NCBI GenBank assembly: GCA_964511315.1
Contig: CAZEFF010000002.1
Coordinates: 2,230-66,229, forward strand
Origin: an uncultured bacterium
GTDB taxonomy: Bacteria; Omnitrophota; Omnitrophia; Omnitrophales; Aquincolibacteriaceae
Length of the DNA: 64,000 nt
Reading direction: 5' to 3'
The position numbers and the translations under genes were made by a program. The notes under the pieces were generated by a model. It was not told the DNA's origin, did no database searches, and saw nothing but the letters and a program-made list of their open reading frames with translations. Of this stretch, positions 7,382 to 26,259 are shown in pieces; within the stretch, counting starts at the first letter, position 1, and each line of letters begins with the position of its first letter.

Positions 7382-10300
7382 ATGAGTTTTAAAAAGAGTC
7401 ATCACCGCGCTTGGCGAAAGCGCCTAGCCCTCTTTATTACCATCATTTTTACCGCGCAAAGCCTAGGCTTAGCGCCTCATAACCTCTGCGCTCGAATGGA
7501 GGCAGAGGATATCCCTTTACCTATTTCTGAACCCTCGGCAATTCAGATTCCCCCGGAATTTGGACGCATCGATGAAGTGTTCTCTGGAAGCAATAAAAAA
7601 TTAATTATTCTTATTCAGGATGCTCACAGTATTCCAGAAGCGCAGCGCAGCATCCAAAAAACCATAAGCCATCTCAGTAAAACATACGCGCTTAGCGGCA
7701 TCGCACTTGAAGGAGCATCCGGCCCTCTTGACCCCGTCATGCTGCGAAATTATCCCGATCGGGAAAAGCTTTCCGATGTACTTGCTGAGCTTACGCGCAA
7801 AGGGGAGCTAAGCGGTTCCGTAGCCGCGCTCATTGAGGACGGAATCAAGACACCCGCCTTTGGCCTTGAAAATTGGGAGACATACCTTGAAGGCTTGAAT
7901 CTCTATCGTGAAGCTCTGACCCGTCAAGAAAGGGCGGCACGCAAAATCCACGTCTTGCAAAAACGTCTCGCCCGGGAAAAATCTGCCGCCTACTCAAAAA
8001 AGCTTCTGGCTGCGGATGATATTCGGAACCGTGTCGAGAGTAATGAGGTTGATTTTCTTCACGCACTGCTCGAAATTTCAAAAATCAGCGCCGTTCCCGA
8101 AAACACGCCGCTAAGTCTCATCTTAAATCAGCTCAACCGGGGCCCGGCGGCATCGCAAACTTCGAGAAATCTTGAAAATCTATTTGGAGAGCTGGCTTCT
8201 TATTTTACTCAGAAAAAAAATTCCGAGGCTTTATCGTCGCTGGCGGAAAAACGTCAGAGCTATCAAAGCAGTGAGCTTGATCTCTACGCATTCGCCTCCT
8301 ATTTGCGTCATCTCGCTGTTTCCGAATCCATCCCGACAATTTCCTTAACACCGGATGTTATCGAGCTTGCTGAAGTTTATGACAAACTGAATCAAATAAA
8401 AGGGTCAGCGGTCTACGCGGAATTTGAAACTCATCTTAACCGCACGATCCACGGCCTTATTCAAACCAGCAAACAAAATGAACTGAACCGTCAATCAGAA
8501 ATACTTCGCTTCGAAAATAAGCTCAACCAGCTCCGGCTAACACGCTCAGAACTCAAGCAGCTTGAGACATCTTCATCGGATATAAATAACCGCGGTGCGT
8601 ATCCATCCTTAAACCTTGAGCTAGCGGCTCATTCAGCATTCTATCGGAATACCCTCAAACGGGATCATGAGCTGTATGAAAACTTTAAAAAAATGGCATC
8701 GGAGAAAAATACGCCATCGGCATGGATTATTGTCGCAGGGGGATTTCACAGCGCTGGACTCCTTGAACAGGCGCGTAAGGACGGATTCTCCTTTGTTAAA
8801 ATCTTGCCGGCAATTCGAAGCCTCCCCGAACATGATTTCTACACGGATCACATGGAAGGAAAAGTCAGCTGGGTAAATCAAGAAAGCTTGGATTCAGGCC
8901 GCGGCCTTTATGAAATCTTCTTAACTTTTGCCATGTCGGCTCTTTTTAAGGATTCATCAGAAAATGAAGCTGCATCAGCCTTGCGCGTCTGGCGTCAAAA
9001 TATTATACGAGACCTATCTGAAATAAAGCGTTTAAACGAATCTTCATCTTACACAAAAATAATTGACGCTGAGTTAACAGCGCGGAAATCCGCGTTCTTA
9101 AAGAGAAACTGGATCTCAAATATTAACCGTTTTACTTCGCAGATGGACGAATTAGAAAAATCGGCCCGCCTAAACAAACAGAATGTTTTGGATATTTTAA
9201 AAACACCCGCGATTCCGGCTCTCTTAACAGGCCCAGGGGTCTTGACTCGAAAGGGAATTCCCGCATCAAGGAGCAGGTCAGAAGCGCGCACCGCGGCTTG
9301 GCGCGAGTCTGATGAGCCGCTCAGCCGTAAAGACGTCATATTCGCTATGGGGGAAGATTTTACCGTTCACCTTCCAACAGGGCAAACCTATAAGCTCCCG
9401 AAAGGCCTCTGGGGAAAATACTTCTCTCGGCAGCCCGCTCAGCAGGAAATACGGGAAGTTTTGCCGCCAAAAAGTTCTGAGCCCATCATTCTTATTGAGA
9501 TCACAGTGCCTAAAGCGGAAAGCGATGAGCTGACTGCCGAACTTAAAATTCTCGGGGATGCTGTCACTGAACTTTTCCCCGGCTATAAATACGCTTTCCT
9601 GCCTCCGGAAACAGCCGGAACATCTCAAACGCAGTTTTTAAAATTTTACAAATTTGATATTCTGACCGGAGACACGGCGGCACCGCCGGTGATTCTCGAA
9701 AATGCTCCGAGTATTATCACTGCATCCGCAGGCAATAGCACCAAACCCGCCGGCCCAAATGAAAATCCAATCCTAAACCGCCGAAATTTCTTAACCTTTA
9801 TCAGTCTAAGCGTGATTGGGTCAATCGCCGCATTCACGTTCTGGCCTCGGACAAAGAAGCCTTTGGCTGTACAGCCTGAAACCGTTTCTAAAATTAACCC
9901 GGCAGGAAAAAAACTCGATGAAATCGATTCAGGTGATAGGGAAGCGGTCAAAATTCACTTATCCGGAATTGGCAATTATTTGAGAGAAGGCGGCATTCAT
10001 CCCGCGACCGGCATTGCCCGTGATCACGTTCAAATTGACCGGCTTTCGGGAAAAATTTCGGGAACACCCGCCAATTATTCTTCCCCGTCAAAACTATCAG
10101 TTTATTTACCCTTTTTACTCAAAATTATTCAAGGCGAAGATGTCTTAGCGCTTACAGGAATTTCAAAACGGGAAGCTGTCGAACTTCTTTCAAAATCACT
10201 TTTTTCACTCCGCCGCTTCCAAGTCGAAGGTTCGGGCAGTCACGAAGTTCAGTCGGGATTATTTCCCTGGTTTGAAATGAAAGACGATGGATCCCTTTCG

Positions 10301-13300
10301 CTTGTCCGATATTCCGGCAAGGCAACAATCCCGATCCTTGATAATGGCCAGCTTTCATTCGCGCTCGCGGCCATCGCGGGCGGACTATGGGATTCAAGAG
10401 ATCCTGAACTCATTGAAATTCAAAAAACCGCCCGGGATATTCTTGATCACCAGCATTATGAGGAAATGGTTAACCCCGCGACCGGATTGCTGTTTGAAGA
10501 ATGGGATCTGGAAGGCATGAGGGGAATTGAAAAACCAGGACACGCGAATCTTTGGACCGAATGGATGCTTGCGGTTTATTGGGCTCATTTAAACGGACAT
10601 ATCACTAACGACGCTTGGCTGCGGTTTAATCATGAAATCTATTTTCAGCAGGCAGAAAATAAAGAAATTCCGATGCCCCAAGGATATATTTTTTCGTTTC
10701 ACGAAACCGGATGGCCGCTCCTGTATATACCGGCGATGAAATCAGACCTCGCGAACCTTTATTACAATTATCTTTGGCTTCACGCGAAGCATGCCCGGCA
10801 AAATGGTCTTCCGGGATTTGTCGGCACGGAATACTCTCCCGCGGGGCAATATGCCCAGGCCGGCATTGATATTACAAAGTACGGCAACGGCGTTGTGCTC
10901 GGGCGGATTGATGATTCGTCCTTAAGCGCCCCGTACGCGACAGCATTCGCGGCGCTTATCTATCCTTCCGTGGGATTCAAATGGTCCAATCGTTTGCTGT
11001 CACAAAAGGGCGTTGTCGACAAATACGGGCCCGTGACCTCTTATAAGGTGGATGAAGGGGCATCGCACATTCATACTGCCGACACGACTTTCGCAACCGC
11101 GCTCGCTTTAAGCGGCGGGGTATCCAGAGAAGTCGAAGTTTATTTCAATCGCGCCCGCGGATTATCCGAAAATGATTTGCTCGCGCCCTTCAATCAGCAA
11201 GCCGCGCAAATTCAAAACACATCAAATATTTCGAAATTTGAAACGGTGTCAGGCATACCCCTGCCTCCAAAAAATCTCGGCGCGGTGAAAAAGCCGAAAA
11301 ATATGAAATTGGAAGGTAAAACGGTATCTCTTTTCTCGAAACTCCAAACGGGTCATTGGCACGGAGAAAACGTGAGCGTTCCGGAGGCTTATTGGGATGA
11401 AAAAATGGACAGCACGCAGTCATGGATTTTTCATAAAGGTGAAATCATCGCGGACTACCAGGTAGGCGCAACCATGAAAGATTATGCCTGGCTCGGCACG
11501 CCCGTAGATCCCGTACCGATTGCCGGAGCAAAATATCTTTCGTTTTGGATTCCCGCCGATTTAAAAGAGTACTGGGAAATTGAGCTCAAGCACATCGATC
11601 AGCAGCTTACGTCTTCAAAAATCATCGTGAACACACAGGATACTGCGGTAACTTATGAAACCTCGAAGGATGGAAAATGGCGCCGCCTGCTTATCCCAAT
11701 TAAGCCGTCACCGCATACCGAGTCTGAAACACTTAATTATCTGGCGGTTTCAATTCCAAGCCCATTAACCTCTCCCTCAAAGCGGGAGGGCGCCATCCGG
11801 ATCAAAAATATACAAATCCATTCTGAAAAACCCACGCATGAAAAAGAGTCATTTTCTAAATCCGTTTCATCCGAGGCCGCCTCAGAAGATGGTTCGGTAG
11901 GAAAAAAACCGACCCATGAAACAAAAATTTCGGAACCTTTCTTTTTACTTCTCCGGAAAGAAAAAAGGAACCTTACCAACGGCGACTTACAAAACATCAT
12001 TTTCCCAAGCGGGGTACTGCGCATCGAGCCGCGCGGTCACTGGGCCGGAGAATCGATAAGACTAAGCCCCAATGTCTCCGATTTACGCTACATCTATATG
12101 CGGGTAAGGGCGCCTAATGGAAAAGCCGTTTTTAAAATTGAAATCCCCAATTTAGTACCTATCAAAAAAGAAATACGGATCAATTCAAAAAATTGGCAAA
12201 CGCTTGAAATCGCGCTGGATCAGCCTTTCGCGGCGAAAGATCTGACTTACTTCGCGGTTTCTGACGCGACCGATGTGATAGAGCTGGCTGATTTCCAATT
12301 ATCCGCGAAGGCTATTCCAGGCGCAGAATTATTCGCCTCAACCGATTACTCACCGTCATATTCAGGAATTTACGCGTATGCTTCGAATACTGCCGGCGCT
12401 CATTCCGCTCAAAAAATCGCCGCCGGAGAACTTAACCGTTTAGCGTCACCGCTACCGCTTTCAAATATCCTCCTCGCGAAAGCAGGCCGGTCCGAACTCC
12501 GCACTTCACCTTATTCCGCGAATGTTCTGGCAATCCGGGATTATTTAGTCACCAAAAACGGCAGTACCCAAACAAATCCGGTCGCGGACGCTCTGAAAAA
12601 CGCGATTCATTTGGGGCTTGGCGCGTTTTCAAAAGAAATCGAAACCCTCGTGACCCAGCTGCATAGAGAAAACCGCGCTCACGGAGCTCTCGCAAAACTC
12701 CTGAGCGACCTGATGTCGGAAGATGAAACGACTCTGCGCCAAATTATCGCCTTTGAGCGGATTCTTGATGATAAGCGCGCTTCTGAGCCTTTATCAAGCG
12801 CGGAAGAATGGTCGTGGAAAATTATTAAAAGCCGGGGGATCGGCGATATTTTTTTCGCGAGTCCGGAAGCAGCACCGTTTCTTTCCATGGCAGGCGGAAT
12901 GGCTCCGGCCGTATGGGGACAAGCCAAACTGCTTGCTGATACCGGCGTCAGCGTCTCAATCGTTTCGTTTCTTTATGATCAGGATCAAAACAAAAAACAT
13001 AAATCCGCCCAAGAGCTCATCACAAGCGGCGTCCGTCACGATGGAAAAAAATACGCCTTAAAGAAACTTGAAATGTCACTGCGAATTCCAATTGGGCCAG
13101 TGGTCGAGGAAGCCTTCGGCCACCGGCAAGTCATCGCGGGGCCTCAATCGATACGCGCGGATGTCTATACTTTTGAAGCGGAGGGCGTCCGCTTTTATCT
13201 GCTGCATGAGCCTGAATTGGGAAACAAACTTTATCCTCCCAGCGACTCCATTGACAGCTTTAAGCGTACAATTTTTCTTTCCCGGGGAACACTTGAAGTC

Positions 13301-16300
13301 ATAAAGAATCTCGATGAATTCCCTGATTTCATTGTCTCTCACGATTGGATGGCTTCGTTAATTCCCGCTTATCTAAAAACAACTCTCGCAGGAGTAAACT
13401 CTCTCAGCCATATTCCCGCCGCAAAAAACTATTCCTCGGATGAACATTTCAAAAGCACCAAACCGCTGATGTTTTTACACAACACCTTAAGAGACTACCA
13501 GGCCGCTTTTTACAACAATATGGAAACCGATAAATTTGACCGCAAACGCCGTATTGAACTTTTCCCGCTGTCAGGCCTAGGCGACGAGCATTTCTTTGGA
13601 TTTCAGGATTCGGGCGATGGATCACGCATCAATCTTGCAAAAGCCGGTGCTTTTCATGCCGCGGGAGTATGGCACCCAAGCCTTAAGCACGGAAATGAAT
13701 TACTCGTCCCCGAAACAGGGGAAACGCTTGAATCACTTATGCGTTCGAAAATGCCTTATAATTTCGGCATCAGCAACGCGGTCAATCTTCCCGATATTTG
13801 GTCGGAAATCGATCATATCGGAAAAGACCTGCTCAAATGGGCCCGCGAAAATTCAATCCCGGCTTCAGCGTTAGGATTTTCTGAAGAAATTGAGAACGCT
13901 GCCACCGCGCCATTTACAAAAGATAATTTTAAAAAAGCCCTTCCTTTTTACCGCGCACTTTCAAAACGCTATTTACAGCGCCAGCAAGGGATGAAAGAAG
14001 ATTCGCATGTCATCCTTTCAGGTTTTGTCGGACGCGTCGCGAAGCAAAAGGGAGTCGCGCTCATCCGGGATGCCTTGGTCAGCTATCTTGATCAAACCGC
14101 GGATCAAAACACTCAGCTTTTTATCGGCGGACCAGTAGCCCAAGGAGACAGAGACGCGGAAACGTTTGAAGCGCTTGTCAAAGAACTCGCGGATAATCCA
14201 AAGTACCGCGGCAGGATCGGAGTCAAAGCAGGCGCCAAAGAATTTTTAGATAAAAGAGAAGTCGTGCTTTCATTCTTGGCCATGGACATTTTTCTTATGC
14301 CCTCCGAAAGAGAACCTGGCGGCATCACACAAATTGAAGCATTGGCCATCGGGGTTGCGTTTATCGTCGCTCATTTTATCGGCGGTATCGCGGACACAGT
14401 TACACAATACAACCCCGCGGAAAAGAAGGGGAACGGCTTTTTCTTTCAGCATTTCAGCCGGGATGAATATTTGCGGGCCTGGATCGAAGCCACCGCGACA
14501 ATACATAACCACCCTGATATTGCTGCCAAAAATATTATCGAAAATGCCTTTGAAGCCGCTTTTGACTGGAGCCGTCAAACACCGCTTTACTTGACCATGC
14601 TCAGGTACGTCGCGGGCGGTTGGGTCGAAGGCGATCCGCAAGCCGAGAATGAGATCAAACTGCTGTCTCGAATTTTGGTGGGTAATCCTAAAATTCGTCC
14701 TATTTTAAAAGGCCCAGGACATTCCCTGCAAATCATTGATTCCGAATTCAAAAACCATCCGATTGTGGCCGACCTTTTTGACGGACGGAAAATTGATATT
14801 CAGCTTTTGCCCAATGACATCCCAAGTGGAAATTTTTCCTATGATTTGGCCAACCGCGTATCCTCCTGGAGCAGCGTTAAAAAATCCGATATCAACTTTT
14901 CCGGACCTCCCATTAATTTTCCGTGGGAATCCTATGAACAAACCCTCAAGAAAGAACCCACTCACATCACATTTTCTTACCACAATCTGTACTTCAATGA
15001 CGGGTTTGTCGCCTTCCGGAATCCAAAAGGACTCTACTTTCGGAGAGATGAACCTTTCCGCCGGCGGACATACAGCATGTTTGTTGTCTGGAATAATGGC
15101 GAAGCCACAGCGGAAAAAATTCGCTTCACAAAAAAAGACGGGCAAACACGCGGCAAAGTCCGAGTCGTACGCGCTCAGGCGATTAATCAAAACGTGGATC
15201 TCGGCCCAAAAATAAAATTTGCCATTTTTGGACAGCAGATCATTTCAGAAGGAAAAGCCGTAAAAATTCAGGACCTCGCGCATCAATTTCCCGATATTTT
15301 TCATCTTTATCAGCTTCCTCAATTTCCGCCGGCAGCCGCCAGTGATAAATACGGTCCCGCTATCGGGATCCGTGAACTTTTGAGCGGCCCCACACACGCG
15401 ATTGAGGCATCTGACCGGCCCGTGCTTTTGGAAACTCTGAAAAACGGCGGCCTATCCGAATTTAATCTGCAGCCTTATTTAGGAATGGGCTATTCAATAC
15501 AGGACATCCGGGAAAAGGCTCTCGCTCCGCGGGGCTACAAAGAAGTCTCGGCAGCCATTCCCGGAAATCAACTTGCCGCGGGGGAGTATTTCATTCAGGA
15601 CCGCACTCTTCACATCCGTCTGAAACCGGCGCTTTATCCGCATAACCTAATCGGCATTACCGAAGATGGAAAAGTTGTATCGCTCGTGCTGACCGGGGAT
15701 AAAACCATTGGCGAGGGCTATGCTGTTTCCGATATCGCGAGTCTGGTGAACGATAAATTGAGCCATTTAAAAATCCGCGATCTTTTCCTCCTTGCCAATA
15801 GCGGTGACGCGTTTCGCCGAAAAAATGGAGCGTTTACCCATACGAGCGGCCCAGCTCCTTATACTGCGGGCACCGCCATGATCAGCTTTGCACTTAGCAC
15901 CCCTCGTTCAGAGATCCGTAAAGCCCCGGCAGACCAATCCAATCTCCGCCGCGCGGTAAAAATTACAGCACTCGCGCTGGCTCCTGATGAAATTTTGGGC
16001 GGACACTTTCAGCGGCCTCAAAAAAATGAAATCCAATTTGCGATCCAAGAAATCACCAAACTCCCGCTGTCATCAACGCCGAAATTGCACGATGCGCTTA
16101 TTCATTACAGCTCGTTCGTTTTAAATCAAGAGACAGGCAGCTGGCTTGAAAAACAGCTGCCCATGGACAGCGTCAATACTCCTTTCATTAGTCCCGCGGC
16201 AAGACGCTTAGCCATGACAAAACTACCCAAGACAATCGCAGGAGAAGGTCTTATCTTAGATGAATCATTCGTACTGAAAGGCGGGCTTGCGTTTATTCCG

Positions 16301-16669
16301 ACATTGTTTTTAGATCAGCCGGTTGTTATTCTTACACAAAATAAAGAAATCGAAGCTGAGGTGCAGCGTTTCAATGAAAGGTATCATTTAGCCGTTCCAA
16401 CCGTAAAGACTGTTCCTGATGCCATTATTGCGGTTTCAAAAACTTCGCTCAATAAAAGCAGTCTTACCGCATCAAAACTTGTTCCGCGCGCCTTACTTGG
16501 ACAGGATTACAATTGGAGTATTCGGTCCGCCCTGATTAAGCAATTAGGGGATCAGCAAGTTTCGATTCTCTCAAGTTCCATGGTTGAGTGGATGGCCCAG
16601 ACAGCCGGTGTTTCAGAACTCTTAAGTCAGCTTGCTGAAACCTACTCCCGTATCGCCAAGTCCGCGTAA
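7382..16669 (+). CDS. giant (3095 aa) multidomain protein: signal peptide, TraB/GumN-like region, internal TM helix, DUF3131-like (alpha/alpha)6 glycoside-hydrolase-like domain, beta-rich region, glycogen/starch-synthase-like GT5 glycosyltransferase domain, uncharacterized C-terminal ~650 aa
   Basis: A single uninterrupted ORF. The N-terminus has a signal peptide (RLALFITIIFTAQSLGLA). TraB/GumN-type motifs are present (LIILIQDAHS ... WIIVAGGFHSAGLL). An internal hydrophobic helix follows an RR motif (NRRNFLTFISLSVIGSIAAFTFW), about nt 9778-9846. The GT5-like domain shows EAAPFLSMAGGMAPAVWG near its start, and later FLMPSEREPGGITQIEALAIGVAFIVAHFIGGIADTV (FLMPSE..PGG matches the glycogen-synthase E-x7-E region). 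Confidence 0.6.
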   Translation: MSFKKSHHRAWRKRLALFITIIFTAQSLGLAPHNLCARMEAEDIPLPISEPSAIQIPPEFGRIDEVFSGSNKKLIILIQDAHSIPEAQRSIQKTISHLSKTYALSGIALEGASGPLDPVMLRNYPDREKLSDVLAELTRKGELSGSVAALIEDGIKTPAFGLENWETYLEGLNLYREALTRQERAARKIHVLQKRLAREKSAAYSKKLLAADDIRNRVESNEVDFLHALLEISKISAVPENTPLSLILNQLNRGPAASQTSRNLENLFGELASYFTQKKNSEALSSLAEKRQSYQSSELDLYAFASYLRHLAVSESIPTISLTPDVIELAEVYDKLNQIKGSAVYAEFETHLNRTIHGLIQTSKQNELNRQSEILRFENKLNQLRLTRSELKQLETSSSDINNRGAYPSLNLELAAHSAFYRNTLKRDHELYENFKKMASEKNTPSAWIIVAGGFHSAGLLEQARKDGFSFVKILPAIRSLPEHDFYTDHMEGKVSWVNQESLDSGRGLYEIFLTFAMSALFKDSSENEAASALRVWRQNIIRDLSEIKRLNESSSYTKIIDAELTARKSAFLKRNWISNINRFTSQMDELEKSARLNKQNVLDILKTPAIPALLTGPGVLTRKGIPASRSRSEARTAAWRESDEPLSRKDVIFAMGEDFTVHLPTGQTYKLPKGLWGKYFSRQPAQQEIREVLPPKSSEPIILIEITVPKAESDELTAELKILGDAVTELFPGYKYAFLPPETAGTSQTQFLKFYKFDILTGDTAAPPVILENAPSIITASAGNSTKPAGPNENPILNRRNFLTFISLSVIGSIAAFTFWPRTKKPLAVQPETVSKINPAGKKLDEIDSGDREAVKIHLSGIGNYLREGGIHPATGIARDHVQIDRLSGKISGTPANYSSPSKLSVYLPFLLKIIQGEDVLALTGISKREAVELLSKSLFSLRRFQVEGSGSHEVQSGLFPWFEMKDDGSLSLVRYSGKATIPILDNGQLSFALAAIAGGLWDSRDPELIEIQKTARDILDHQHYEEMVNPATGLLFEEWDLEGMRGIEKPGHANLWTEWMLAVYWAHLNGHITNDAWLRFNHEIYFQQAENKEIPMPQGYIFSFHETGWPLLYIPAMKSDLANLYYNYLWLHAKHARQNGLPGFVGTEYSPAGQYAQAGIDITKYGNGVVLGRIDDSSLSAPYATAFAALIYPSVGFKWSNRLLSQKGVVDKYGPVTSYKVDEGASHIHTADTTFATALALSGGVSREVEVYFNRARGLSENDLLAPFNQQAAQIQNTSNISKFETVSGIPLPPKNLGAVKKPKNMKLEGKTVSLFSKLQTGHWHGENVSVPEAYWDEKMDSTQSWIFHKGEIIADYQVGATMKDYAWLGTPVDPVPIAGAKYLSFWIPADLKEYWEIELKHIDQQLTSSKIIVNTQDTAVTYETSKDGKWRRLLIPIKPSPHTESETLNYLAVSIPSPLTSPSKREGAIRIKNIQIHSEKPTHEKESFSKSVSSEAASEDGSVGKKPTHETKISEPFFLLLRKEKRNLTNGDLQNIIFPSGVLRIEPRGHWAGESIRLSPNVSDLRYIYMRVRAPNGKAVFKIEIPNLVPIKKEIRINSKNWQTLEIALDQPFAAKDLTYFAVSDATDVIELADFQLSAKAIPGAELFASTDYSPSYSGIYAYASNTAGAHSAQKIAAGELNRLASPLPLSNILLAKAGRSELRTSPYSANVLAIRDYLVTKNGSTQTNPVADALKNAIHLGLGAFSKEIETLVTQLHRENRAHGALAKLLSDLMSEDETTLRQIIAFERILDDKRASEPLSSAEEWSWKIIKSRGIGDIFFASPEAAPFLSMAGGMAPAVWGQAKLLADTGVSVSIVSFLYDQDQNKKHKSAQELITSGVRHDGKKYALKKLEMSLRIPIGPVVEEAFGHRQVIAGPQSIRADVYTFEAEGVRFYLLHEPELGNKLYPPSDSIDSFKRTIFLSRGTLEVIKNLDEFPDFIVSHDWMASLIPAYLKTTLAGVNSLSHIPAAKNYSSDEHFKSTKPLMFLHNTLRDYQAAFYNNMETDKFDRKRRIELFPLSGLGDEHFFGFQDSGDGSRINLAKAGAFHAAGVWHPSLKHGNELLVPETGETLESLMRSKMPYNFGISNAVNLPDIWSEIDHIGKDLLKWARENSIPASALGFSEEIENAATAPFTKDNFKKALPFYRALSKRYLQRQQGMKEDSHVILSGFVGRVAKQKGVALIRDALVSYLDQTADQNTQLFIGGPVAQGDRDAETFEALVKELADNPKYRGRIGVKAGAKEFLDKREVVLSFLAMDIFLMPSEREPGGITQIEALAIGVAFIVAHFIGGIADTVTQYNPAEKKGNGFFFQHFSRDEYLRAWIEATATIHNHPDIAAKNIIENAFEAAFDWSRQTPLYLTMLRYVAGGWVEGDPQAENEIKLLSRILVGNPKIRPILKGPGHSLQIIDSEFKNHPIVADLFDGRKIDIQLLPNDIPSGNFSYDLANRVSSWSSVKKSDINFSGPPINFPWESYEQTLKKEPTHITFSYHNLYFNDGFVAFRNPKGLYFRRDEPFRRRTYSMFVVWNNGEATAEKIRFTKKDGQTRGKVRVVRAQAINQNVDLGPKIKFAIFGQQIISEGKAVKIQDLAHQFPDIFHLYQLPQFPPAAASDKYGPAIGIRELLSGPTHAIEASDRPVLLETLKNGGLSEFNLQPYLGMGYSIQDIREKALAPRGYKEVSAAIPGNQLAAGEYFIQDRTLHIRLKPALYPHNLIGITEDGKVVSLVLTGDKTIGEGYAVSDIASLVNDKLSHLKIRDLFLLANSGDAFRRKNGAFTHTSGPAPYTAGTAMISFALSTPRSEIRKAPADQSNLRRAVKITALALAPDEILGGHFQRPQKNEIQFAIQEITKLPLSSTPKLHDALIHYSSFVLNQETGSWLEKQLPMDSVNTPFISPAARRLAMTKLPKTIAGEGLILDESFVLKGGLAFIPTLFLDQPVVILTQNKEIEAEVQRFNERYHLAVPTVKTVPDAIIAVSKTSLNKSSLTASKLVPRALLGQDYNWSIRSALIKQLGDQQVSILSSSMVEWMAQTAGVSELLSQLAETYSRIAKSA

Positions 16670-16811: not shown

Positions 16812-17066
16812 ATGACTGAAGAACGAATCAAGCAAACCGTATATGCTCTGAACCTTAAAAAAGGGGAAGAGATTCAATTCTCTTTAAGCCAATACAAGGG
16901 ACATGCTTATGTCGATATGCGCATCTGGTTTGAGAGTAAAGCCGCCGACGGAAAGCGTCCAACCAAAAAGGGACTCAACTTCAGCCTCTCAAAGCTGACC
17001 GAGTTCCAGAAGGGTCTTGAATGCCTCAAACAAGCCGGCTCAAAGACCTTTACAGCCTCATCCTAA
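16812..17066 (+). CDS. PC4-like (transcriptional coactivator p15/YdbC family) ssDNA-binding protein
   Basis: 84 aa; matches the PC4 C-terminal domain pattern KG..YVD.R.......DG..PTKKG...SL..L; good RBS (AGGAGG) 8 nt upstream. Confidence 0.65.
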   Translation: MTEERIKQTVYALNLKKGEEIQFSLSQYKGHAYVDMRIWFESKAADGKRPTKKGLNFSLSKLTEFQKGLECLKQAGSKTFTASS

Positions 17067-17111
17067 CCCGCTAAAATGTCACAACTTGCAATCATTTAAG
17101 GAGAAATTTCC

Positions 17112-21360: not shown

Positions 21361-22662
21361 ATGCAAGTATTACCCTGGGATAAAAACACACAAAAAAAAG
21401 TCAGACGCGAATTCGCCACTGTTTTTGACAAAGAAGTCTTTAAAAAAGTCAGCCGCATTATGTCGGAAGTCAAAGACCGGGGCGATCTGGCGCTTCGCCG
21501 TTTCACGCGCGAATTTGACGGCATCGATTTACCCCTTAAACGCCTCCGCGTTTCTCAAGGCGACATCAACCGGGCCTTTGAAAAAATCCAGGTTCAATTC
21601 GTTCCGCTTCTTAAACAAATCACCGAAAACGTCAAAGAGTATTACGAAAAGGAACTCAAACAGTCTTTTGAGATTCAAGGCAAAGACGGCATTCGCCTCG
21701 CTAAGCAATACATGCCGCTTGAACGCGTAGGAATTTACATTCCCGGAGGCACCGCGCCTCTTGTCTCCACCGTTTATATGACCGTCATTCCCGCCAAAGT
21801 CGCGGGTGTTAAAGAAATTATTATCTGCACGCCTCCAAACCGTGACACGGGAGAAATTGATCCGCATATTCTTGCCGTCGCGAACCTTCTTGGCGTTGAG
21901 GAAATTTACCGTGTTGGGGGAGCCCAGGCAATCGCCGCGATGGCTTTCGGAACACGAACCATTAGAAAAGTGGATAAAATTGCCGGACCCGGCAATCAAT
22001 ATGTCACCGAAGCCAAACGTCAGGCCTACGGGTTTGTCGATATCGATATGGTCGCCGGCCCGAGTGAAGTCGCGATCATCGCTGATTCCTCAGCCAATCC
22101 TGATTATGTGACTTGCGATTTGCTGGCTCAAGCCGAACACTTTGGCGGCACCTCTTATCTTGTCACGCCCTCAAAAAAATTAATCGAAGCCGTCCGCAAA
22201 AGAATCGATGAAGGTTTTATCGTACAAACGAAATCCATTCAGGAAGCGGTCGAAGTCGTCAACGAAATTGCTCCGGAACATTTAGAAATACTTACCGAAG
22301 ATCCGCGTTCGATTTTAAAATCCGTTAAACACGCCGGCGCCATTTTCATCGGCCCTTACTCGCCGGCGGTTATCGGGGACTACATCGCCGGTCCAAGTCA
22401 CGTGCTTCCAACCGGGGGAACCGCCCGTTATTTTTCACCTTTGAGCGCGTCCACATTTGTGAAGAGCTCCCAAATTATTGAATACACTAAAGAAGCTTTA
22501 ATGAAAACCCGGGAGCATGTGCAGAAAATTACGGATATGGAAGGACTTGTCCTTCACCGCATATCACTTGAGGCGCGCTTTGTGGAAAATGCCGGCACCA
22601 TCATTCCCGCAAAAGCGCCCGCGAATGAACCCATCGATATCATGAAGGAGAAAGACGCATGA
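21361..22662 (+). CDS. hisD: histidinol dehydrogenase
   Basis: 433 aa; conserved HisD blocks (AGPSEVAIIAD, CDLLAQAEH, GDYIAGPSHVLPTGGTARYFSPLS). Confidence 0.9.
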   Translation: MQVLPWDKNTQKKVRREFATVFDKEVFKKVSRIMSEVKDRGDLALRRFTREFDGIDLPLKRLRVSQGDINRAFEKIQVQFVPLLKQITENVKEYYEKELKQSFEIQGKDGIRLAKQYMPLERVGIYIPGGTAPLVSTVYMTVIPAKVAGVKEIIICTPPNRDTGEIDPHILAVANLLGVEEIYRVGGAQAIAAMAFGTRTIRKVDKIAGPGNQYVTEAKRQAYGFVDIDMVAGPSEVAIIADSSANPDYVTCDLLAQAEHFGGTSYLVTPSKKLIEAVRKRIDEGFIVQTKSIQEAVEVVNEIAPEHLEILTEDPRSILKSVKHAGAIFIGPYSPAVIGDYIAGPSHVLPTGGTARYFSPLSASTFVKSSQIIEYTKEALMKTREHVQKITDMEGLVLHRISLEARFVENAGTIIPAKAPANEPIDIMKEKDA

Positions 22663-23261
22663 AAAAAGCCGTGAGGAAAGCTCAAATTAAACGGACCACC
22701 GCTGAAACCGATATCAAGCTCGCGCTCAATATTGACGGTTCCGGAAAATCGCGCATCCATACCGGCATGCCTTTTCTTGATCATATGCTGACCCTGCTTG
22801 CCAAACACGGCCTCATGGATCTTGACGTCAAAGCCAAAGGCGATTTACATGTCGATATCCACCACACCAATGAAGACGTGGGCATTGTTCTCGGGCAAGC
22901 TTTTCGCAAAGCGCTCGGCTCAAAAGCCGGGATTCGCCGCTACGGCTGCTTTGCCGTACCCATGGATGAAGTGCTCGCGCGGGTAACGCTCGATATTTCG
23001 GGCCGTCCCTCTGTTTTTGTTCACCAGGCCAAAGGCGTCAAACATTCCCGTCTCGAAAATTATTCTTTTCACGACTCCGTCGAATTTCTGCGCTCCTTCT
23101 GCCTTCATGCCGGCATCAATATGCATGTGGAAGTTTTAACGGGCCACGATGCCCACCATATCATTGAGGGCGTATTTAAGGCTGTCGCTAAAGCGCTCGA
23201 TATGGCCACAACCATTGATCCGCGCGTCAAAGGCATTCCTTCAACTAAAGGCAGTTTATAA
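22659..23261 (+). CDS. hisB: imidazoleglycerol-phosphate dehydratase
   Basis: 200 aa monofunctional IGPD with HHxxE metal motifs (IHHTNEDVGI, GHDAHHIIEG). Confidence 0.9.
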   Translation: MKKAVRKAQIKRTTAETDIKLALNIDGSGKSRIHTGMPFLDHMLTLLAKHGLMDLDVKAKGDLHVDIHHTNEDVGIVLGQAFRKALGSKAGIRRYGCFAVPMDEVLARVTLDISGRPSVFVHQAKGVKHSRLENYSFHDSVEFLRSFCLHAGINMHVEVLTGHDAHHIIEGVFKAVAKALDMATTIDPRVKGIPSTKGSL

Positions 23262-23332
23262 GAAGTAAGCGTTAAGCGATAAGTATCTGCTTTTTCACTT
23301 ACTACTTAAAACTTAACGCTTAGCGCTTTTAT

Positions 23333-23944
23333 ATGATCACAATCATTGATTACGGAATGGGAAATTTAAGAAGTGTTTCCAAGGCCCTCGAACATCTTGG
23401 GGCCAAGGTGGCTATCACTTCATCACCCTCCGATATTGAAGCGGCCGAAAAATTAGTGCTTCCCGGCGTCGGCGCATTCGGCGACGCGATGAAAGAGCTC
23501 GACCGCCTGAAACTCTCAGACCCTATCCGTGAACACGTGAAAAAGGGGAAACCTTTTCTTGGAATCTGTCTTGGTCTCCAGCTCATCTTTGAAGAATCCG
23601 AAGAAACACCGGGAGTCCGGGGCCTCGGCATGCTTAAAGGAAAAGTTCAGCGCTTTCGATCAGCGAATGTGAAAGTGCCTCACATGGGCTGGAATGATGT
23701 GACGCTCAAACAAAATCATCCGCTTTTACAAAACGTTAAAGACCGCAGTTTTTTTTATTTTGTTCACACTTTTTACCCTGTCCCTGCAGACTCCGCTGTC
23801 ATTGCCGGAACCTGTACCTACGGCACCGAAACATTCTGCGCCATGGTGGGAGCCAAAAATCTTTTCGCGGCCCAGTTTCATCCCGAAAAAAGTCAGGAAG
23901 CGGGCCTTGAGATATTGAAAAACTATATAGGGTGGAAAGTATGA
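23333..23944 (+). CDS. hisH: imidazole glycerol phosphate synthase, glutamine amidotransferase subunit
   Basis: 203 aa class I GATase (GICLGLQ active-site Cys; HMGWN; FHPEKS). Confidence 0.9.
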   Translation: MITIIDYGMGNLRSVSKALEHLGAKVAITSSPSDIEAAEKLVLPGVGAFGDAMKELDRLKLSDPIREHVKKGKPFLGICLGLQLIFEESEETPGVRGLGMLKGKVQRFRSANVKVPHMGWNDVTLKQNHPLLQNVKDRSFFYFVHTFYPVPADSAVIAGTCTYGTETFCAMVGAKNLFAAQFHPEKSQEAGLEILKNYIGWKV

Positions 23945-24663
23945 TCAATCTCTATCCCGCGATTGATCTCTATGAAGGACAAGTTGTGCGTCTGCAAAAA
24001 GGGGATTATGCCAAGAAAACCGTTTATTCCGATAATCCAGGCGCCATGGCCAAAGATTTTGAAACTCAAGGCGCGAAATGGCTGCACCTTGTGGATCTCG
24101 AAGGCGCGAAGCTCGGGCAAATTAAGAATTGGGCCTCACTAGAAAAAATCCGCTCCGCCGTAACTTCCAAACTCGAATTCGGCGGCGGTATCCGAACACT
24201 GGAAGACTTAAAAAAGCTCGATAGCCTAGGAATCAACCGGATGATCTTAGGGACCAAGGCCCTTGAGAAAACCTTCCTCGAAAAGGCTCTGGCCCAGTTC
24301 GGTTCTAAAATTGCCGTGGGCCTTGATATCCGCGATGGACTCGTGCAAACTCAAGGCTGGCTTGAAGCTGAGGCCCTCACACTTGAAGCCGCCGTCAAAT
24401 TTTTGAATGATCTGCCTGTGGAAACTTTGATTTATACCGATATACAAAAGGACGGGATGCTTCAGGGCCCAAACTTTGAAAAACTGGAAGAACTCTTGAA
24501 ACTCGCGAAGGCGAGGATTATTCTAAGCGGCGGCGTGGCGCGCATAGAAGATATCTCGCAATGCGCCAAAATCAAAAACAGCCGCTTTGACGGCGTCATC
24601 ATCGGCAAAGCGCTGTATGAAAAGCGGTTTACTTTAAAAGACGCGGTCAAAATCGCGGGATAA
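23932..24663 (+). CDS. hisA: phosphoribosylformimino-5-aminoimidazole carboxamide ribotide isomerase
   Basis: 243 aa (beta/alpha)8 HisA (LYPAIDL..G..VRL; VDLEGA; GGGIR; SGGV). Confidence 0.85.
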   Translation: MESMINLYPAIDLYEGQVVRLQKGDYAKKTVYSDNPGAMAKDFETQGAKWLHLVDLEGAKLGQIKNWASLEKIRSAVTSKLEFGGGIRTLEDLKKLDSLGINRMILGTKALEKTFLEKALAQFGSKIAVGLDIRDGLVQTQGWLEAEALTLEAAVKFLNDLPVETLIYTDIQKDGMLQGPNFEKLEELLKLAKARIILSGGVARIEDISQCAKIKNSRFDGVIIGKALYEKRFTLKDAVKIAG

Positions 24664-24666
24664 CTT

Positions 24667-25068
24667 ATGACAGAACCTTTAAAAAATTACATGGATATCG
24701 TCCTTACTCAACGAGACTGGTCTTGGGCCATCATCGGCATTGCTTATTTGATTATCGCGCTCAGCATCCGCAGCTGGTTCATGAGCCCTCTTATCCGCAG
24801 AGTCAAAGACCTTGATAAAAAGCAGAACAAAGAGGTGAAGCGGATTTACCTCGAAAATTCCATCTTTGGATGGTTCTTTTTTATCATTCCTTTTTTTATT
24901 ATCACCTGGCTCTGGTATAACCAGCTGCATATCCCCATGAGTGTTCAAGACGCCCTGATCCTTCTTGGCGCGCTTGTCTCGTATGTGCTTTCGATTATCG
25001 CTCATATCATCGCGTTTGGCTTGGCAGCCATGAGCGTCCTCAAAAAGTATACGGACTCAAACAAATAA
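24667..25068 (+). CDS. small hypothetical integral membrane protein inserted between hisA and hisF
   Basis: 133 aa with 3-4 predicted TM helices and no recognisable family; sits 3 nt after the hisA stop and ends 4 nt before hisF. Confidence 0.5.
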
Positions 25069-25072
25069 ACGA

Positions 25073-25831
25073 ATGCTCACCAAAAGAATCATCCCTTGTC
25101 TCGACGTCAAAGACGGACGCGTGGTTAAAGGCGTTCAGTTTGTCGATCTTCGTGACGCCGGCGATCCGGTGCAATGCGCCATCGCTTACGACAAAGCCAA
25201 AGCGGATGAACTTATTTTTCTCGATATCACTGCCTCTCACGAAAAACGCCAAACCATGATCGAAGTCGCTAACAAAGTCGCTGAATCGGTGTATATTCCT
25301 TTTACTGTGGGCGGGGGAATTAATGAGGTCAGCGATATCCGCGAACTCCTCAAGGCCGGCTGCGACAAAGTTTCTATCAACACAAGCGCGATCAAAAATC
25401 CCGATTTCATCAAACAGGCCAGCACAAAATTTGGAAGTCAATGCATTGTGGTCGCCATTGACGCCCGCAAAAAGTCTGACGGCAAATGGGAAGTGTTTAC
25501 TCACGGCGGACGCAATCCCACAGGGCTTGACGCGGTTGAGTGGGCCAAAAAAGCGGAATCATTCGGCGCCGGAGAAATTCTTCTGACCAGCATGGATAAA
25601 GACGGCACCAAATCCGGCTATGATCTTGAACTCACGCGCCTCATTTCGCGCACCTTGAAAATTCCGGTCATTGCTTCAGGCGGTGTGGGAACCATGGAAC
25701 ATATCTATGAAGGATTCTCAAAAGGGGAAGCCGATGCCTGTCTCGCCGCCTCGATTTTCCATTTTGGAGAATTCACCATCCCTGAAGTAAAGCGCTTCCT
25801 TTCTCAAAAAAATATCCCCGTCCGTTTATAA
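25073..25831 (+). CDS. hisF: imidazole glycerol phosphate synthase cyclase subunit
   Basis: 252 aa HisF ([16 protein letters not shown] ... SGGVG). Confidence 0.9.
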
Positions 25832-26111
25832 ATTTTTTTTCGCGCGGGTCCTGCCGCGAGAATCCCCAGGTCTTCCTCAAATTTTTCCGGGTCCTGTCAG
25901 CAAGGTTTCCGCAGGGACTCCTCAAAATACTTTTCTTATGAAGCAGTCATTCTTCCTTATCTTTTTTCGTCCAGAAAGTTAACTCTCATCCAATTCTCAC
26001 AGCATGCGGCTTTAAGAAAAGTATTTTTCCTCTCCCTTTACGGAACCTCGCTGCCACCCGCAAAACACTCCTAACTAAAAATGTTAGCCCCCTTACTTTC
26101 AAGAGCGAAGC

Positions 26112-26242
26112 ATCATACTTGCCTGAGAGAAGCTCCCGCAATCCTTTGAAGCTTGGTTTCCCATCAGGGAATTCAAAGGATGAGGGGCAGCGGGCAGCCG
26201 CCGCTGGAGCGGCTGAACCGCGATTCTCGGGGCAAGTATGAT
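26112..26242 (+). ncRNA. candidate structured RNA / conserved palindromic element, copy A (upstream of hisI)
   Basis: A 12-bp closing helix (ATCATACTTGCC / GGCAAGTATGAT) encloses conserved blocks CCTG..GAAGCT..CTCCCG.AA.C, TGAGGGGCAG, a hairpin loop CGCTGGA and CC.CGAT. Three internal helices co-vary with copy B at 33998-34153. Strand of any transcript unknown. Confidence 0.5.
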
Positions 26243-26259
26243 CGCGAGTGTGTATCTAG

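What the first reader, a model, noticed from the sequence alone, without database searches (positions are those of the whole stretch)
7382..16669. 3095-aa single-ORF megaprotein combining TraB/GumN-like, DUF3131-like glycoside-hydrolase-like and glycogen-synthase-like (GT5) modules
One uninterrupted 9.3-kb ORF encodes the following in order. A signal peptide comes first. An ~470-aa region carries TraB/GumN-type motifs (LIILIQDAHS ... WIIVAGGFHSAGLL). Coiled-coil-like linkers follow. A single internal TM helix with an RR motif is near aa 800. Next is an (alpha/alpha)6-type DUF3131-like domain paralogous to the separate secreted protein at 50007-53234. Then come beta-rich modules. The retaining glycosyltransferase domain has glycogen-synthase hallmarks (AAPFLSMAGGMAPAVWG; E-x7-E region FLMPSEREPGG; GGIADTV). 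Finally there is a ~650-aa uncharacterized C-terminal region. Fusing a glucan-synthase-like and a glucan-hydrolase-like module with a TraB-like domain across a membrane helix suggests a dedicated polysaccharide synthesis and remodelling machine. No characterized counterpart is known to me.
Basis: partly seen in the sequence, partly recalled or inferred. Interest (0 to 1): 0.7.

Follow-up and report, generated by a model that had tools for sequence, protein, structure and literature searches.

The report
Cysteine-free modular exported enzyme chain
The 3,095-residue protein is real and belongs to a very large, barely described family of long Omnitrophota proteins: a shared hydrolase-like head, swappable enzyme modules (here sugar-polymer enzymes) separated by a short Arg-Ser-Glu-x-Arg tag, almost no cysteine, and a tail ending in alanine.

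Summary
The ORF 7382-16669(+) is real: 3,095 aa with composition and codon usage like its neighbours. It sits alone between plsY and recA in a housekeeping region of an Omnitrophota-like genome.

- **Shared head.** Residues 1-640 are the only part shared with relatives. This head matches 9,157 cluster representatives, and in the 150 best listed it sits at the N-terminus of 0.6-8 kaa proteins. The first 111 homologues carry unrelated cargo.
- **Other family marks.** RSExR pentapeptides are 71-fold enriched and lie at the edges of shuffled homology blocks; this protein has three. Cysteine is nearly absent (1 in 3,095 aa, in the leader). 77% of relatives end in [A/S]-A-COOH; this protein ends in KSA.

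The head is therefore generic and not a dedicated partner of the glycan enzymes. Best reading: an exported cap-and-cargo chain with glycan-themed cargo, with RSExR as processing or recognition sites (inferred). A new variant of the known Omnitrophota long multi-enzyme proteins.

The parts
7382..16669 (+). Whole ORF: 3,095 codons plus stop, encoding the megaprotein
   Evidence: ORF list and translation. GC, GC3 and codon usage are uniform along it and resemble the neighbouring genes.
7382..7492 (+). Leader, aa 1-37: basic n-region (net +6), hydrophobic core LALFITIIFTAQSLGLA, and the only cysteine (C36)
   Evidence: Homologues carry the same kind of leader, often with an AxA-type ending. Cleavage was not predicted with a dedicated tool.
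7493..9274 (+). Family-wide N-terminal cap, aa 38-631. An alpha/beta core of TIKI/ChaN/Ere/TraB type (about aa 60-165 and 445-480) carries invariant D80-x-H82, E110 and H456, with a large conserved helical insert (aa 165-445).
   Evidence: - It is the only region shared with the 111 homologues.
- The profile finds 9,157 representatives; in the 150 best listed it is at the N-terminus.
- Invariant columns.
- AF2 model with pLDDT 78.
- Foldseek found nothing significant.
9275..9289 (+). RSEAR delimiter 1 (aa 632-636), in a linker modelled as disordered
   Evidence: pLDDT is about 30 for aa 608-640. Homology to relatives ends here.
9290..9784 (+). Module B, aa 637-801: unassigned, no homologue found
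   Evidence: No Pfam hit and no hit among 243 family proteins.
9776..9847 (+). Tat-like NRRNFL motif followed by a hydrophobic helix (aa 799-822). Either a stop-transfer anchor or the relic signal of a captured glucanase.
   Evidence: Kyte-Doolittle 19-mer mean 1.84, the only such segment outside the GT core. Flanking charges are +2 before and +3 after.
10004..11134 (+). SGL-clan (beta-1,2-glucanase-like) domain, about aa 875-1251. Candidate key residues are D987, E1060, H1107, Y1185 and D1234.
   Evidence: phmmer gives 6imu (TfSGL, GH162) at 1.4e-5 in two collinear stretches, and 8xuj (EeSGL1, GH192) at 0.009-0.019. Identity and roles of the residues come from PMC12102758. E1060 is placed by spacing only.
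11372..12487 (+). Beta-rich region, aa 1331-1702. Its second half (aa 1483-1642) recurs in another family protein.
   Evidence: phmmer to P0169 residues 1790-1944 at 5.5e-16, followed there by RSEWR at residue 1965. No Pfam hit. No internal repeat detected.
12488..12502 (+). RSELR delimiter 2 (aa 1703-1707)
12656..14704 (+). GT5-type GT-B glucan-synthase-like module, aa 1759-2441. The N-domain is aa 1823-2121 and the C-domain about aa 2204-2408.
   Evidence: - PF08323 at 1e-24 and PF00534 at 1e-13.
- TIGR02095 scores 160 bits, below its 328-bit cutoff.
- Alignment to GlgA structures conserves HDW, R/K (GRVAKQKG), E (EREPGG) and GGIADTV.
- The KTGGL lysine is replaced (SMAGGM).
- The whole module is homologous to P0001 residues 3445-4156.
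14750..15904 (+). Module F, aa 2457-2841: a recurring module of unknown fold with a weak NAGPA (phosphodiester glycosidase) signal
   Evidence: - P0112 at 1e-75 and P0237 at 7e-35; both copies end in PRSEVR or RRELR.
- PF09992 at 4e-4, below cutoff, in only 1 of the 3 copies.
- AF2 failed with pLDDT 37.
15905..15919 (+). RSEIR delimiter 3 (aa 2842-2846), directly after the last conserved strand of module F
15920..16666 (+). Module G, aa 2847-3095: unassigned, ending in the family-typical tail …SRIAKSA-COOH
   Evidence: No homologue. 187 of 243 family proteins end in AA or SA. The last six residues match the family consensus, but a tail HMM is not significant at E=1.5.

Best explanation
The gene encodes one member of a very large, so far unnamed family of long 'cap-and-cargo' proteins of Omnitrophota and neighbouring lineages.

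**Anatomy**
- A Sec-type leader.
- A ~600-aa cap: a TIKI/ChaN/Ere/TraB-type hydrolase core with an intact 2-His/2-acid motif, plus a large helical insert.
- A string of independently shuffled modules, each closed by an RSExR pentapeptide in a flexible linker.
- A tail ending in [A/S]-Ala-COOH.
- A polypeptide essentially free of cysteine.

**Cargo in this member**
- An SGL-clan (GH162-like) beta-1,2-glucanase-like domain behind a hydrophobic helix.
- A beta-rich region.
- A GT5 glycogen/starch-synthase-like GT-B.
- A module with a faint phosphodiester-glycosidase signal.
- A tail module.

**Proposed working**
The chain is made as one precursor and targeted out of the cytoplasm by its leader. 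The absence of cysteine fits passage or residence outside. The RSExR tags are read by a factor common to the family. My preferred guess is endoproteolytic processing, by the cap itself or by an unlinked protease. That would turn the chain into separate glycan enzymes acting on glucan outside the producer's cytoplasm, or anchored at its membrane.

**Shown**
- The ORF exists.
- Family membership.
- Motif enrichment and its position at module edges.
- Cysteine depletion.
- The tail.
- GT5 and SGL-clan homology.

**Inferred**
- Export of the cargo.
- Cleavage at RSExR.
- Which enzyme does the cleaving.
- All substrates.
For: **Family and cap**
- Homology to 111 giant proteins is confined to aa 1-640 and always lies at their N-terminus.
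- The cap profile finds 9,157 representatives, 5,366 of them at E<=1e-30; in the 150 best listed the match starts within about 50 residues of the N-terminus.
- D80-x-H82, E110 and H456 are invariant. The His-to-Glu spacing is 28 aa, the same as Bcr135 H85/E113 and RRSP H3902/E3930.

**RSExR**
- 382 occurrences against about 10 expected.
- It is the top enriched gapped pentamer at 71-fold. The median first site is at residue 668 and the median spacing is 339 aa.
- Flanks are not conserved and are linker-like. Codons differ between the three sites in this gene.
- Motifs cluster at the edges of homology blocks, with decile counts 320…243 at the ends against about 20 in the middle. 40% of block ends have a motif within 10 aa, against 5% at random.
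- Modules D and F recur elsewhere, each followed by the motif.
- The motif is absent from all other ORFs of the window and of three related loci.

**Cysteine and tail**
- 1 Cys in 3,095 aa, against 0.73% in neighbouring ORFs and 0.10% across the family.
- 187 of 243 family proteins end in AA or SA; this one ends in KSA.

**Cargo**
- GT5.
- SGL clan.

**Literature**
- GT5 is a common domain in long Omnitrophota proteins, and most of those carry a signal peptide or TM helices.
Against: - No experiment bears on export or cleavage.
- If helix 802-822 is a stop-transfer anchor, the cap is outside and two of the three RSExR sites are inside. The cap then could not cut them.
- A GT5 enzyme needs a nucleotide sugar, which argues for a cytoplasmic location or action inside another cell.
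- Many family proteins carry the motif 5-15 aa from their C-terminus. That fits a recognition tag better than a cleavage site.
- P0112 carries three motifs but has no cap and no leader.
- The module F assignment is weak.
Confidence: 0.55

Rival explanations
1. [quoted passage not shown] The leader and helix 802-822 place the cap in the periplasm and aa 823-3095 in the cytoplasm. The uncut chain holds a GT5 synthase and an SGL-clan hydrolase or transglycosylase together, so that a glucan is made and trimmed or cyclised at the membrane. RSExR would be only a linker feature.
For: - One strong hydrophobic helix, with flanking charges compatible with an out-to-in orientation.
- GT5 needs ADP- or UDP-glucose.
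- The cargo is consistently glycan-related.
- Cgs is a precedent for a cytoplasmic SGL-related domain fused to a glycosyltransferase in a giant membrane protein (PMC10834661, listed).
- Nielsen & Lui read sugar-metabolism modules as compatible with a cytoplasmic-face location.
Against: - The cap, RSExR and tail are generic and occur with unrelated cargo, so they say nothing specific about polysaccharide.
- The cargo has no cysteine, even where GlgA has EPCG (here EPGG), which is unexpected for cytoplasmic enzymes.
- GT5 makes alpha-linkages while SGL-clan enzymes act on beta-1,2-glucan, so the two activities are not an obvious pair.
- There is no GT84 or GH94 domain and only one TM helix.
- No polysaccharide export or synthesis genes are nearby.
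- Only about 25% of family members have a TM-like segment after the cap, close to the 19% background.
Confidence: 0.25
2. A host- or prey-directed effector chain, analogous to MARTX toxins. The conserved head and tail serve secretion or translocation. The enzyme modules are released at RSExR inside a partner cell, where nucleotide sugars and ATP are available. There, the GT5 and glucanase-like modules divert or remodel the partner's glucans.
For: - The architecture of conserved ends plus shuffled enzyme modules with linker sites matches the MARTX logic described in PMC6254334.
- The cargo repertoire of relatives looks effector-like: Fic, protein kinases, GNAT, patatin, phosphatases.
- The chains are cysteine-free.
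- TIKI-fold proteins include the site-specific endopeptidase RRSP and the effector HopBA1.
- Omnitrophota are described as host-dependent or predatory nanobacteria.
Against: - No RTX repeats and no cysteine protease domain.
- No secretion-system genes in the window.
- Relatives also carry cargo with no obvious effector role, such as SecA and sigma-70.
- There is no evidence of any host interaction for this organism.
- The tail HMM is not significant for this protein.
Confidence: 0.15
3. An artefact: an assembly chimera or read-through that joins unrelated genes into one ORF.
For: The combination of modules has no full-length relative among 5.8 billion proteins. Modules B, C and G are orphans at close range. 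Read coverage could not be examined.
Against: - 3,095 sense codons in a row.
- GC, GC3 and codon usage are uniform and match neighbouring genes.
- Every junction shows the family's own delimiter (RSExR) and both ends show the family's own caps.
- The same architecture recurs in thousands of independent assemblies.
Confidence: 0.03

Closest known systems
Long 'multi-enzyme metabolic cluster' proteins of Omnitrophota (Nielsen & Lui 2026, bioRxiv 10.64898/2026.06.07.730766; West-Roberts et al. 2023, bioRxiv 10.1101/2023.11.21.568195)
   Same: Same phylum-level source. Many unrelated enzyme domains sit on one chain. GT5 'starch synthase' and GT1 are among the commonest domains. Most proteins have a signal peptide and/or TM helices. 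Whether they are cleaved is an open question.
   Different: Those surveys covered proteins of >=10 kaa or >30 kaa; this one is 3.1 kaa. In text searches of both papers I found none of the TIKI-like cap, the RSExR delimiter, the Ala-terminal tail or the cysteine depletion.
MARTX toxins (multifunctional autoprocessing repeats-in-toxin)
   Same: Conserved ends, exchangeable enzyme modules in the middle, and processing sites in flexible linkers between modules. One MARTX effector (RRSP) has the TIKI fold and is a site-specific endopeptidase.
   Different: No RTX repeats and no cysteine protease domain. The protein has an N-terminal Sec-type leader instead of a purely C-terminal signal. Processing here is unproven, and the cargo is metabolic-type enzymes.
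TIKI / TraB-PrgY-GumN / ChaN / erythromycin-esterase superfamily
   Different: No Pfam TraB, ChaN or Ere hit for this protein. A ~280-aa helical insert splits the core. An extra ~150-aa helical C-terminal extension follows. The first acid is Asp and not Glu.
Bacterial glycogen synthase GlgA (GT5)
   Same: GT-B fold signature. HDW, the Arg/Lys pair, the catalytic Glu of the E-x7-E region and GGxADTV are all conserved.
   Different: It is embedded in a 3-kaa chain. It scores far below the GlgA equivalog cutoffs (160 against 328 bits). The KTGGL lysine is lost (SMAGGM). There are long insertions and no cysteine.
[quoted passage not shown]
   Same: Collinear sequence match to TfSGL (GH162) and EeSGL1 (GH192). 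The DNG Asp, the His at TfSGL H316, the PY Tyr and the Asp at TfSGL D446 are aligned.
   Different: No Pfam hit. The general-acid Glu is placed only by spacing. The His/Asp pattern resembles GH162, described as the only family mostly from eukaryotes. The domain is fused behind a hydrophobic helix inside a giant chain. The fold was not modelled.

Membership tests
GT5 glycogen/starch synthase family | Pfam PF08323 (GT5 N-domain) and PF00534 (GT-B C-domain) above gathering score | tested here: met
   88 bits against a 22.7 cutoff, and 51.2 against 26.4.
GT5 glycogen/starch synthase family | Catalytic and sugar-nucleotide residues of E. coli GlgA: Asp of HDW, the Arg/Lys pair, Glu of the E-x7-E region, and GGLADTV (residue roles from my own knowledge of E. 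coli GlgA) | tested here: met
   The alignment to 3d1j/2qzs shows SHDW, GRVAKQKG, EREPGG and GGIADTV.
GT5 glycogen/starch synthase family | N-terminal K-[TV]-G-G-L motif with its lysine | tested here: not met
   The sequence reads SMAGGM. The relative P0001 reads ARAGGM.
GlgA orthologue (NCBIfam equivalogs / TIGR02095) | Score above the curated whole-protein cutoff | tested here: not met
   Best score 160 bits against a 328-bit cutoff. All equivalogs are far below their cutoffs.
TraB/PrgY/GumN (Pfam PF01963) | Match to the family profile | tested here: not met
   No hit at E<=1 on the whole protein or at E<=10 on aa 1-640. None in 12 family members.
TIKI/ChaN/Ere/TraB superfamily | Alpha/beta core fold with a parallel sheet | tested here: inconclusive
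TIKI/ChaN/Ere/TraB superfamily | 2His/2Glu catalytic motif (acid-x-His, Glu about 28 aa later, and a distal His) | tested here: met
   D80-x-H82, E110 and H456 are invariant in 12 diverse members. The pattern and spacing follow PMC6254334. The residues were not superposed in 3D.
SGL clan (beta-1,2-glucanases) / Pfam DUF3131-Glycoamylase | Pfam PF11329 or PF10091 match | tested here: not met
   No hit at E<=10 on aa 825-1330.
SGL clan (beta-1,2-glucanases) / Pfam DUF3131-Glycoamylase | Significant sequence similarity to characterised members | tested here: met
   6imu (GH162) at E=1.4e-5 over two collinear stretches. 8xuj (GH192) at E=0.009-0.019.
SGL clan (beta-1,2-glucanases) / Pfam DUF3131-Glycoamylase | The three clan-defining residues: the general-acid Glu, the Phe (His in GH162) and the Tyr | tested here: inconclusive
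   H1107 aligns with TfSGL H316. Y1185 lies at clan-like spacing. E1060 fits by spacing only and is not aligned.
SGL clan (beta-1,2-glucanases) / Pfam DUF3131-Glycoamylase | (alpha/alpha)6 barrel fold | not tested
Paralogue of the window protein 50007-53405(-) | Detectable pairwise similarity | tested here: not met
   BLASTP best E=1.7. That protein itself does hit DUF3131 and Glycoamylase.
NAGPA / phosphodiester glycosidase (PF09992) | Profile match above gathering score | tested here: inconclusive
   21.1 bits against a 25 cutoff, covering 60 of 169 positions, in 1 of 3 homologous modules. No PDB hit. The model failed.
Cap-and-cargo family (defined here) | N-terminal cap, RSExR at module borders, [A/S]-A-COOH end, and cysteine depletion | tested here: met
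   - Cap: BLAST 6e-85 to P0003.
- Three RSExR at borders.
- Ends in KSA.
- 1 Cys in 3,095 aa.
MARTX / RTX type-1-secreted toxins | RTX glycine-rich repeats and a cysteine protease domain | tested here: not met
   No GG.G.D motif and no such Pfam domain.
[quoted passage not shown] | GT84 domain, GH94 phosphorylase domain and multiple TM helices | tested here: not met
   Pfam finds only GT5/GT1. There is one internal hydrophobic helix.

The most novel reading that the evidence does not exclude
RSExR-delimited chains are a general bacterial 'polyprotein' strategy. Thousands of Omnitrophota-type enzymes would be made as cysteine-free, exported precursors headed by a TIKI-fold endopeptidase. That peptidase, or a partner protease, would cut at RSExR and release working enzymes outside the cell or inside a partner cell. 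This megaprotein would then be a small, tractable example that delivers a glucan synthase and a glucanase.
Probability: 0.25. Interest if true: 0.9.

Novelty: new variant of a known kind. Interest (0 to 1): 0.68.

Why it matters
Long and giant multi-enzyme proteins of Omnitrophota have been catalogued, but nobody knows how they are handled. West-Roberts et al. state that the absence of information on cleavage points blocked their analysis.

This 3-kaa protein shows the family's grammar in a small example:
- a conserved hydrolase-like head with an intact catalytic motif;
- a five-residue delimiter that statistically marks the borders of shuffled modules;
- a conserved alanine tail;
- near-total avoidance of cysteine.

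That grammar gives three practical gains. It supplies concrete predicted cut or recognition sites to look for in proteomes. It gives a rule for splitting giant proteins into units for structure prediction. It provides a protein small enough to express and test.

If processing is real, it would be a bacterial counterpart of viral polyproteins on a very large scale. If it is not, RSExR is still an unexplained and very widespread linear motif.

Tried and rejected
- **Pfam and NCBIfam.** Searches on the whole protein and on seven segments found only GT5/GT1 and a weak NAGPA signal. TraB and DUF3131 were not found.
- **Close-homologue searches.** aa 825-1705 returned nothing. aa 2440-3095 returned one protein. 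An exact-sequence look-up of the megaprotein found no record.
- **Paralogy with the 50-53 kb protein.** Rejected.
- **Internal repeat in the beta-rich region.** Rejected.
- **DNA-level role for the motif.** Rejected, because codons differ at the three sites.
- **A general 'cap outside, TM, cargo inside' architecture for the family.** Rejected. TM-like segments after the cap are barely above background, 25% against 19%.
- **Structure of module F.** The third gave pLDDT 37, which is unusable, so no fold search was run on it.
- **Fold searches.** Foldseek against the PDB for the cap gave nothing significant. The AlphaFold database library was not available.
- **PDB profile search with the cap alignment.** Nothing meaningful.
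- **Tail HMM.** Too weak to place this protein's tail statistically, E=1.5.
- **Synteny around recA in another Omnitrophota contig.** No giant gene there.
- **RNA genes.** No tRNA or Rfam family in the window.
- **Promoter and terminator scans around the gene.** Nothing useful upstream. Downstream there is a promoter-like site at 17049-17077, ahead of recA.
Full report

The window holds one uninterrupted ORF at 7382-16669 on the plus strand, 3,095 codons, starting at ATG. GC content is 0.46-0.49 along it. GC3 and codon usage of its seven segments correlate with neighbouring genes at r = 0.73-0.89, while those genes correlate with each other at 0.79-0.93. There is therefore no compositional sign of a chimera. 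Read coverage could not be checked.

The gene sits alone in a housekeeping stretch. Upstream are fabF, smc, pgsA and plsY. Downstream are recA, recX, alaS, the his and trp operons and dnaK. No polysaccharide or secretion genes lie nearby. The best recA match (71%) and the named relatives of the megaprotein are Omnitrophota/Omnitrophica MAGs, with some Elusimicrobiota.

**2.

*GT5.* This call is solid.
- PF08323 scores 1e-24 (aa 1823-2121) and PF00534 scores 1e-13.
- Solved GlgA structures match at 8e-18. The alignment conserves HDW, the Arg/Lys pair (GRVAKQKG), the Glu of EREPGG and GGIADTV.
- It is not an orthodox GlgA. It scores 160 bits against a 328-bit cutoff. The KTGGL lysine is replaced, reading SMAGGM.

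*The (alpha/alpha)6 hydrolase call.*
- No DUF3131 or Glycoamylase Pfam hit appears even at E<=10.
- BLASTP against the window's own DUF3131/Glycoamylase protein (50007-53405, minus strand) gives E=1.7. The claimed paralogy is not supported.
- phmmer against PDB sequences does hit two characterised beta-1,2-glucanases of the 'SGL clan'. TfSGL (6imu, GH162) scores 1.4e-5 in two collinear stretches. EeSGL1 (8xuj, GH192) scores 0.009-0.019 (enzyme identities from PMC12102758).
- Four residues align with functional positions: the DNG Asp (D987), the His at TfSGL H316 (H1107), a PY Tyr (Y1185) and the Asp at the TfSGL general base D446 (D1234). E1060 sits where the general acid is expected, but I placed it by spacing only.
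- The fold itself was not modelled.

*The TraB/GumN call.*
- There is no Pfam hit.
- An AlphaFold model of aa 1-640, built on 12 relatives, reached pLDDT 78.
- Foldseek found nothing significant.
This reproduces the acid-x-His … Glu … His catalytic pattern and the 28-residue His-to-Glu spacing of Bcr135 and the endopeptidase RRSP.
- The call is therefore right at superfamily level, with moderate support.
- The 'coiled-coil linkers' are in fact a conserved helical insert of this module.

*Other regions.*
- The beta-rich region has no family assignment and no detectable internal repeat.
- The C-terminal 650 aa split into two parts. One is a ~390-aa module with a sub-threshold NAGPA signal: 4e-4, in only one of three homologous copies, with no PDB hit, and a failed model at pLDDT 37. 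The other is an orphan 250-aa tail module.

**3. What the relatives show**

*The cap.*
- A search of 5.8 billion proteins returned 111 hits, all 1.7-5.4 kaa.
- Local BLAST shows that the shared part is only aa 1-640, and it is always at the hit's N-terminus.
- Their other domains are unrelated: SecA, PEP synthase, kinases, Fic, sigma-70, phosphoglucomutase, isocitrate lyase and more.
- A profile of this cap finds 9,157 cluster representatives, 5,366 of them at E<=1e-30. In the 150 best listed the match starts within about 50 residues of the N-terminus, in proteins of 0.6-8 kaa.
- The window has one such protein.

*The RSExR motif.*
- The megaprotein has RSEAR, RSELR and RSEIR at aa 632, 1703 and 2842, between its modules.
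- In the 111 relatives RSE.R occurs 382 times against about 10 expected.
- In 131 further relatives it is the top enriched gapped pentamer at 71-fold. RAE.R is next at 10-fold. The median first site is at residue 668 and the median spacing is 339 aa.
- Flanks are unconserved and rich in Ala, Ser, Gly, Pro and Glu. The first site lies in a stretch modelled as disordered.
- The three sites in this gene use different codons, so selection acts on the peptide.
- In an all-against-all comparison of cargo regions, motifs inside homology blocks pile up in the first and last deciles (320 and 243, against 11-58 in between). 40% of block ends have a motif within 10 aa, against 5% for random positions.
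- Modules of this protein recur elsewhere with the motif at their end. aa 1483-1642 recurs in P0169, followed by RSEWR. Module F recurs in P0112 (PRSEVR) and P0237 (RRELR).
- The motif is absent from every other ORF of the window and of three related loci.

*Cysteine.*
- The megaprotein has one cysteine, C36 in the leader. Neighbouring ORFs have 0.73% cysteine, which would predict about 22 in a chain this long.
- The 243 family proteins average 0.10%.

*The tail.*
- 187 of the 243 proteins end in AA or SA. In this window only 2 of 55 ORFs do, one of them the megaprotein.
- 25 of 173 end in R[SA]ExR-x(1-4)-[AS]A.
- The megaprotein ends in …SRIAKSA, which matches the consensus of the last six positions. 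A tail HMM is too weak to be significant, at E=1.5.

**4. Interpretation**

The protein is a member of a large cap-and-cargo family. The TIKI-like head cannot be a dedicated partner of the glycan enzymes, because the same head precedes unrelated cargo in the relatives examined. What is specific to this member is its cargo, which is coherently glycan-related.

I consider export of the chain the more likely reading. Three points support it:
- a Sec-type leader that is conserved in relatives, often with an AxA-like ending;
- near-complete cysteine avoidance, which from my own knowledge is typical of proteins that cross membranes unfolded or live outside the cytoplasm;
- the report that 94% of long Omnitrophota proteins carry a signal peptide or TM helices.

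I read RSExR as a tag recognised by a family-wide factor, and my preferred mechanism is proteolytic processing. Three points favour this:
- the tag sits in flexible linkers at module borders;
- the constant head has an intact hydrolase motif;
- the TIKI fold includes site-specific endopeptidases such as Tiki and RRSP.

These steps are inferences. Four observations count against them:
- Helix 802-822 may be a stop-transfer anchor. The cap would then be outside while two motifs are inside.
- GT5 needs a nucleotide sugar.
- The motif often lies a few residues from the C-terminus.
- P0112 carries three motifs with no cap and no leader. It is a separate ORF just downstream of a cap protein.

[quoted passage not shown] The protein lacks that enzyme's GT84 and GH94 domains. 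A MARTX-like effector reading is the most adventurous option that the data allow.

**5. Relation to the literature**

- West-Roberts et al. 2023 and Nielsen & Lui 2026 already describe long Omnitrophota proteins with many enzyme domains. GT5 is the second most common domain in 'Archaeovorins' and the commonest Pfam family (153 proteins) among proteins of >=10 kaa.
- They raise cleavage as an open question and note that cleavage points are unknown.
- Text searches of both papers for motif, cleavage, cysteine, TraB, Tiki and esterase found no mention of the cap, the delimiter, the tail or the cysteine depletion.
- A full-text search for RSELR, RSEVR and RSEMR found nothing relevant.
- The held library is incomplete, so novelty is stated with that caveat.

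**6. Verdict**

The protein is a new variant within a known but mechanistically unexplained kind of protein. Its main value is that it exposes the family's grammar in a protein small enough to test. Interest: 0.68.

Noticed in passing
window 50007-53405 (minus strand): A 1,132-aa protein with DUF3131 (4.7e-8) and Glycoamylase/GH144-type (3.2e-8) Pfam hits. It is a second, free-standing SGL-clan-type candidate in the same genome. It is not detectably similar to the megaprotein's domain.
   Followed up: partly
L081 1633-11101 (Logan SRR32919026 contig, 29 kb): A cap-bearing 2,033-aa protein (P0026) is followed, after a 226-nt AT-rich gap with stops in all frames, by a separate 1,046-aa ORF (P0112). 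P0112 has three RSExR motifs and the closest copy of module F, but no cap or leader. An alpha-amylase-like gene (weak Pfam hit) lies just downstream.
   Followed up: partly
family proteins P0001-P0243 (C-termini): 77% end in AA or SA. Many end in a near-fixed …AR[AS]E[VI]RK[AS]A-COOH after an amphipathic helix. This looks like a dedicated C-terminal signal, such as a secretion signal or a protease or unfoldase tag. I could not assign it.
   Followed up: partly
58 motif-poor family proteins (those in P0001-P0243 with at most one R[SA]ExR): Cap-bearing proteins that lack RSExR show a weak enrichment of GAR.A / G.RLA (about 7-fold). They keep low cysteine (0.13%) and often the AA/SA end. This may be an alternative delimiter.
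   Followed up: no
window 7874-8716 (aa 165-445 of the cap): The large conserved helical insert of the cap gave only non-significant Foldseek matches (E>0.3), many of them to 14-3-3 and other helical peptide-binding proteins. This is a lead for a peptide-binding role and nothing more.
   Followed up: no
window 36993-38933: A RhuM/Fic-domain protein lies next to a DUF1016-N/SNase-domain protein, downstream of dnaK. This may be a small mobile or defence-type islet in an otherwise housekeeping region.
   Followed up: no
window 58182-62072: A MoxR-type AAA ATPase (58182-59171) and a BatA/VWA protein (61053-62072) bracket two ORFs, one not scanned (59286-60161) and one with no Pfam hit (60158-61102). 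This resembles a Bat/MoxR-type cluster.
   Followed up: no
window 21361-31315: His-biosynthesis genes (hisD and hisB, then GATase and two His_biosynth-family genes, presumably hisH/A/F) are followed, after unscanned stretches at about 24.7-25.1 kb and 25.8-26.7 kb, by trp genes (anthranilate synthase I and GATase, Glycos_transf_3, IGPS, PRAI; presumably trpE/G/D/C/F), all on the plus strand. So this Omnitrophota-like genome keeps these pathways, at least in part.
   Followed up: no
window 9776-9847 (aa 799-822): The internal hydrophobic helix is preceded by a textbook twin-arginine-like RRNFL. This suggests that the glucanase-like module was captured together with its own export signal.
   Followed up: partly
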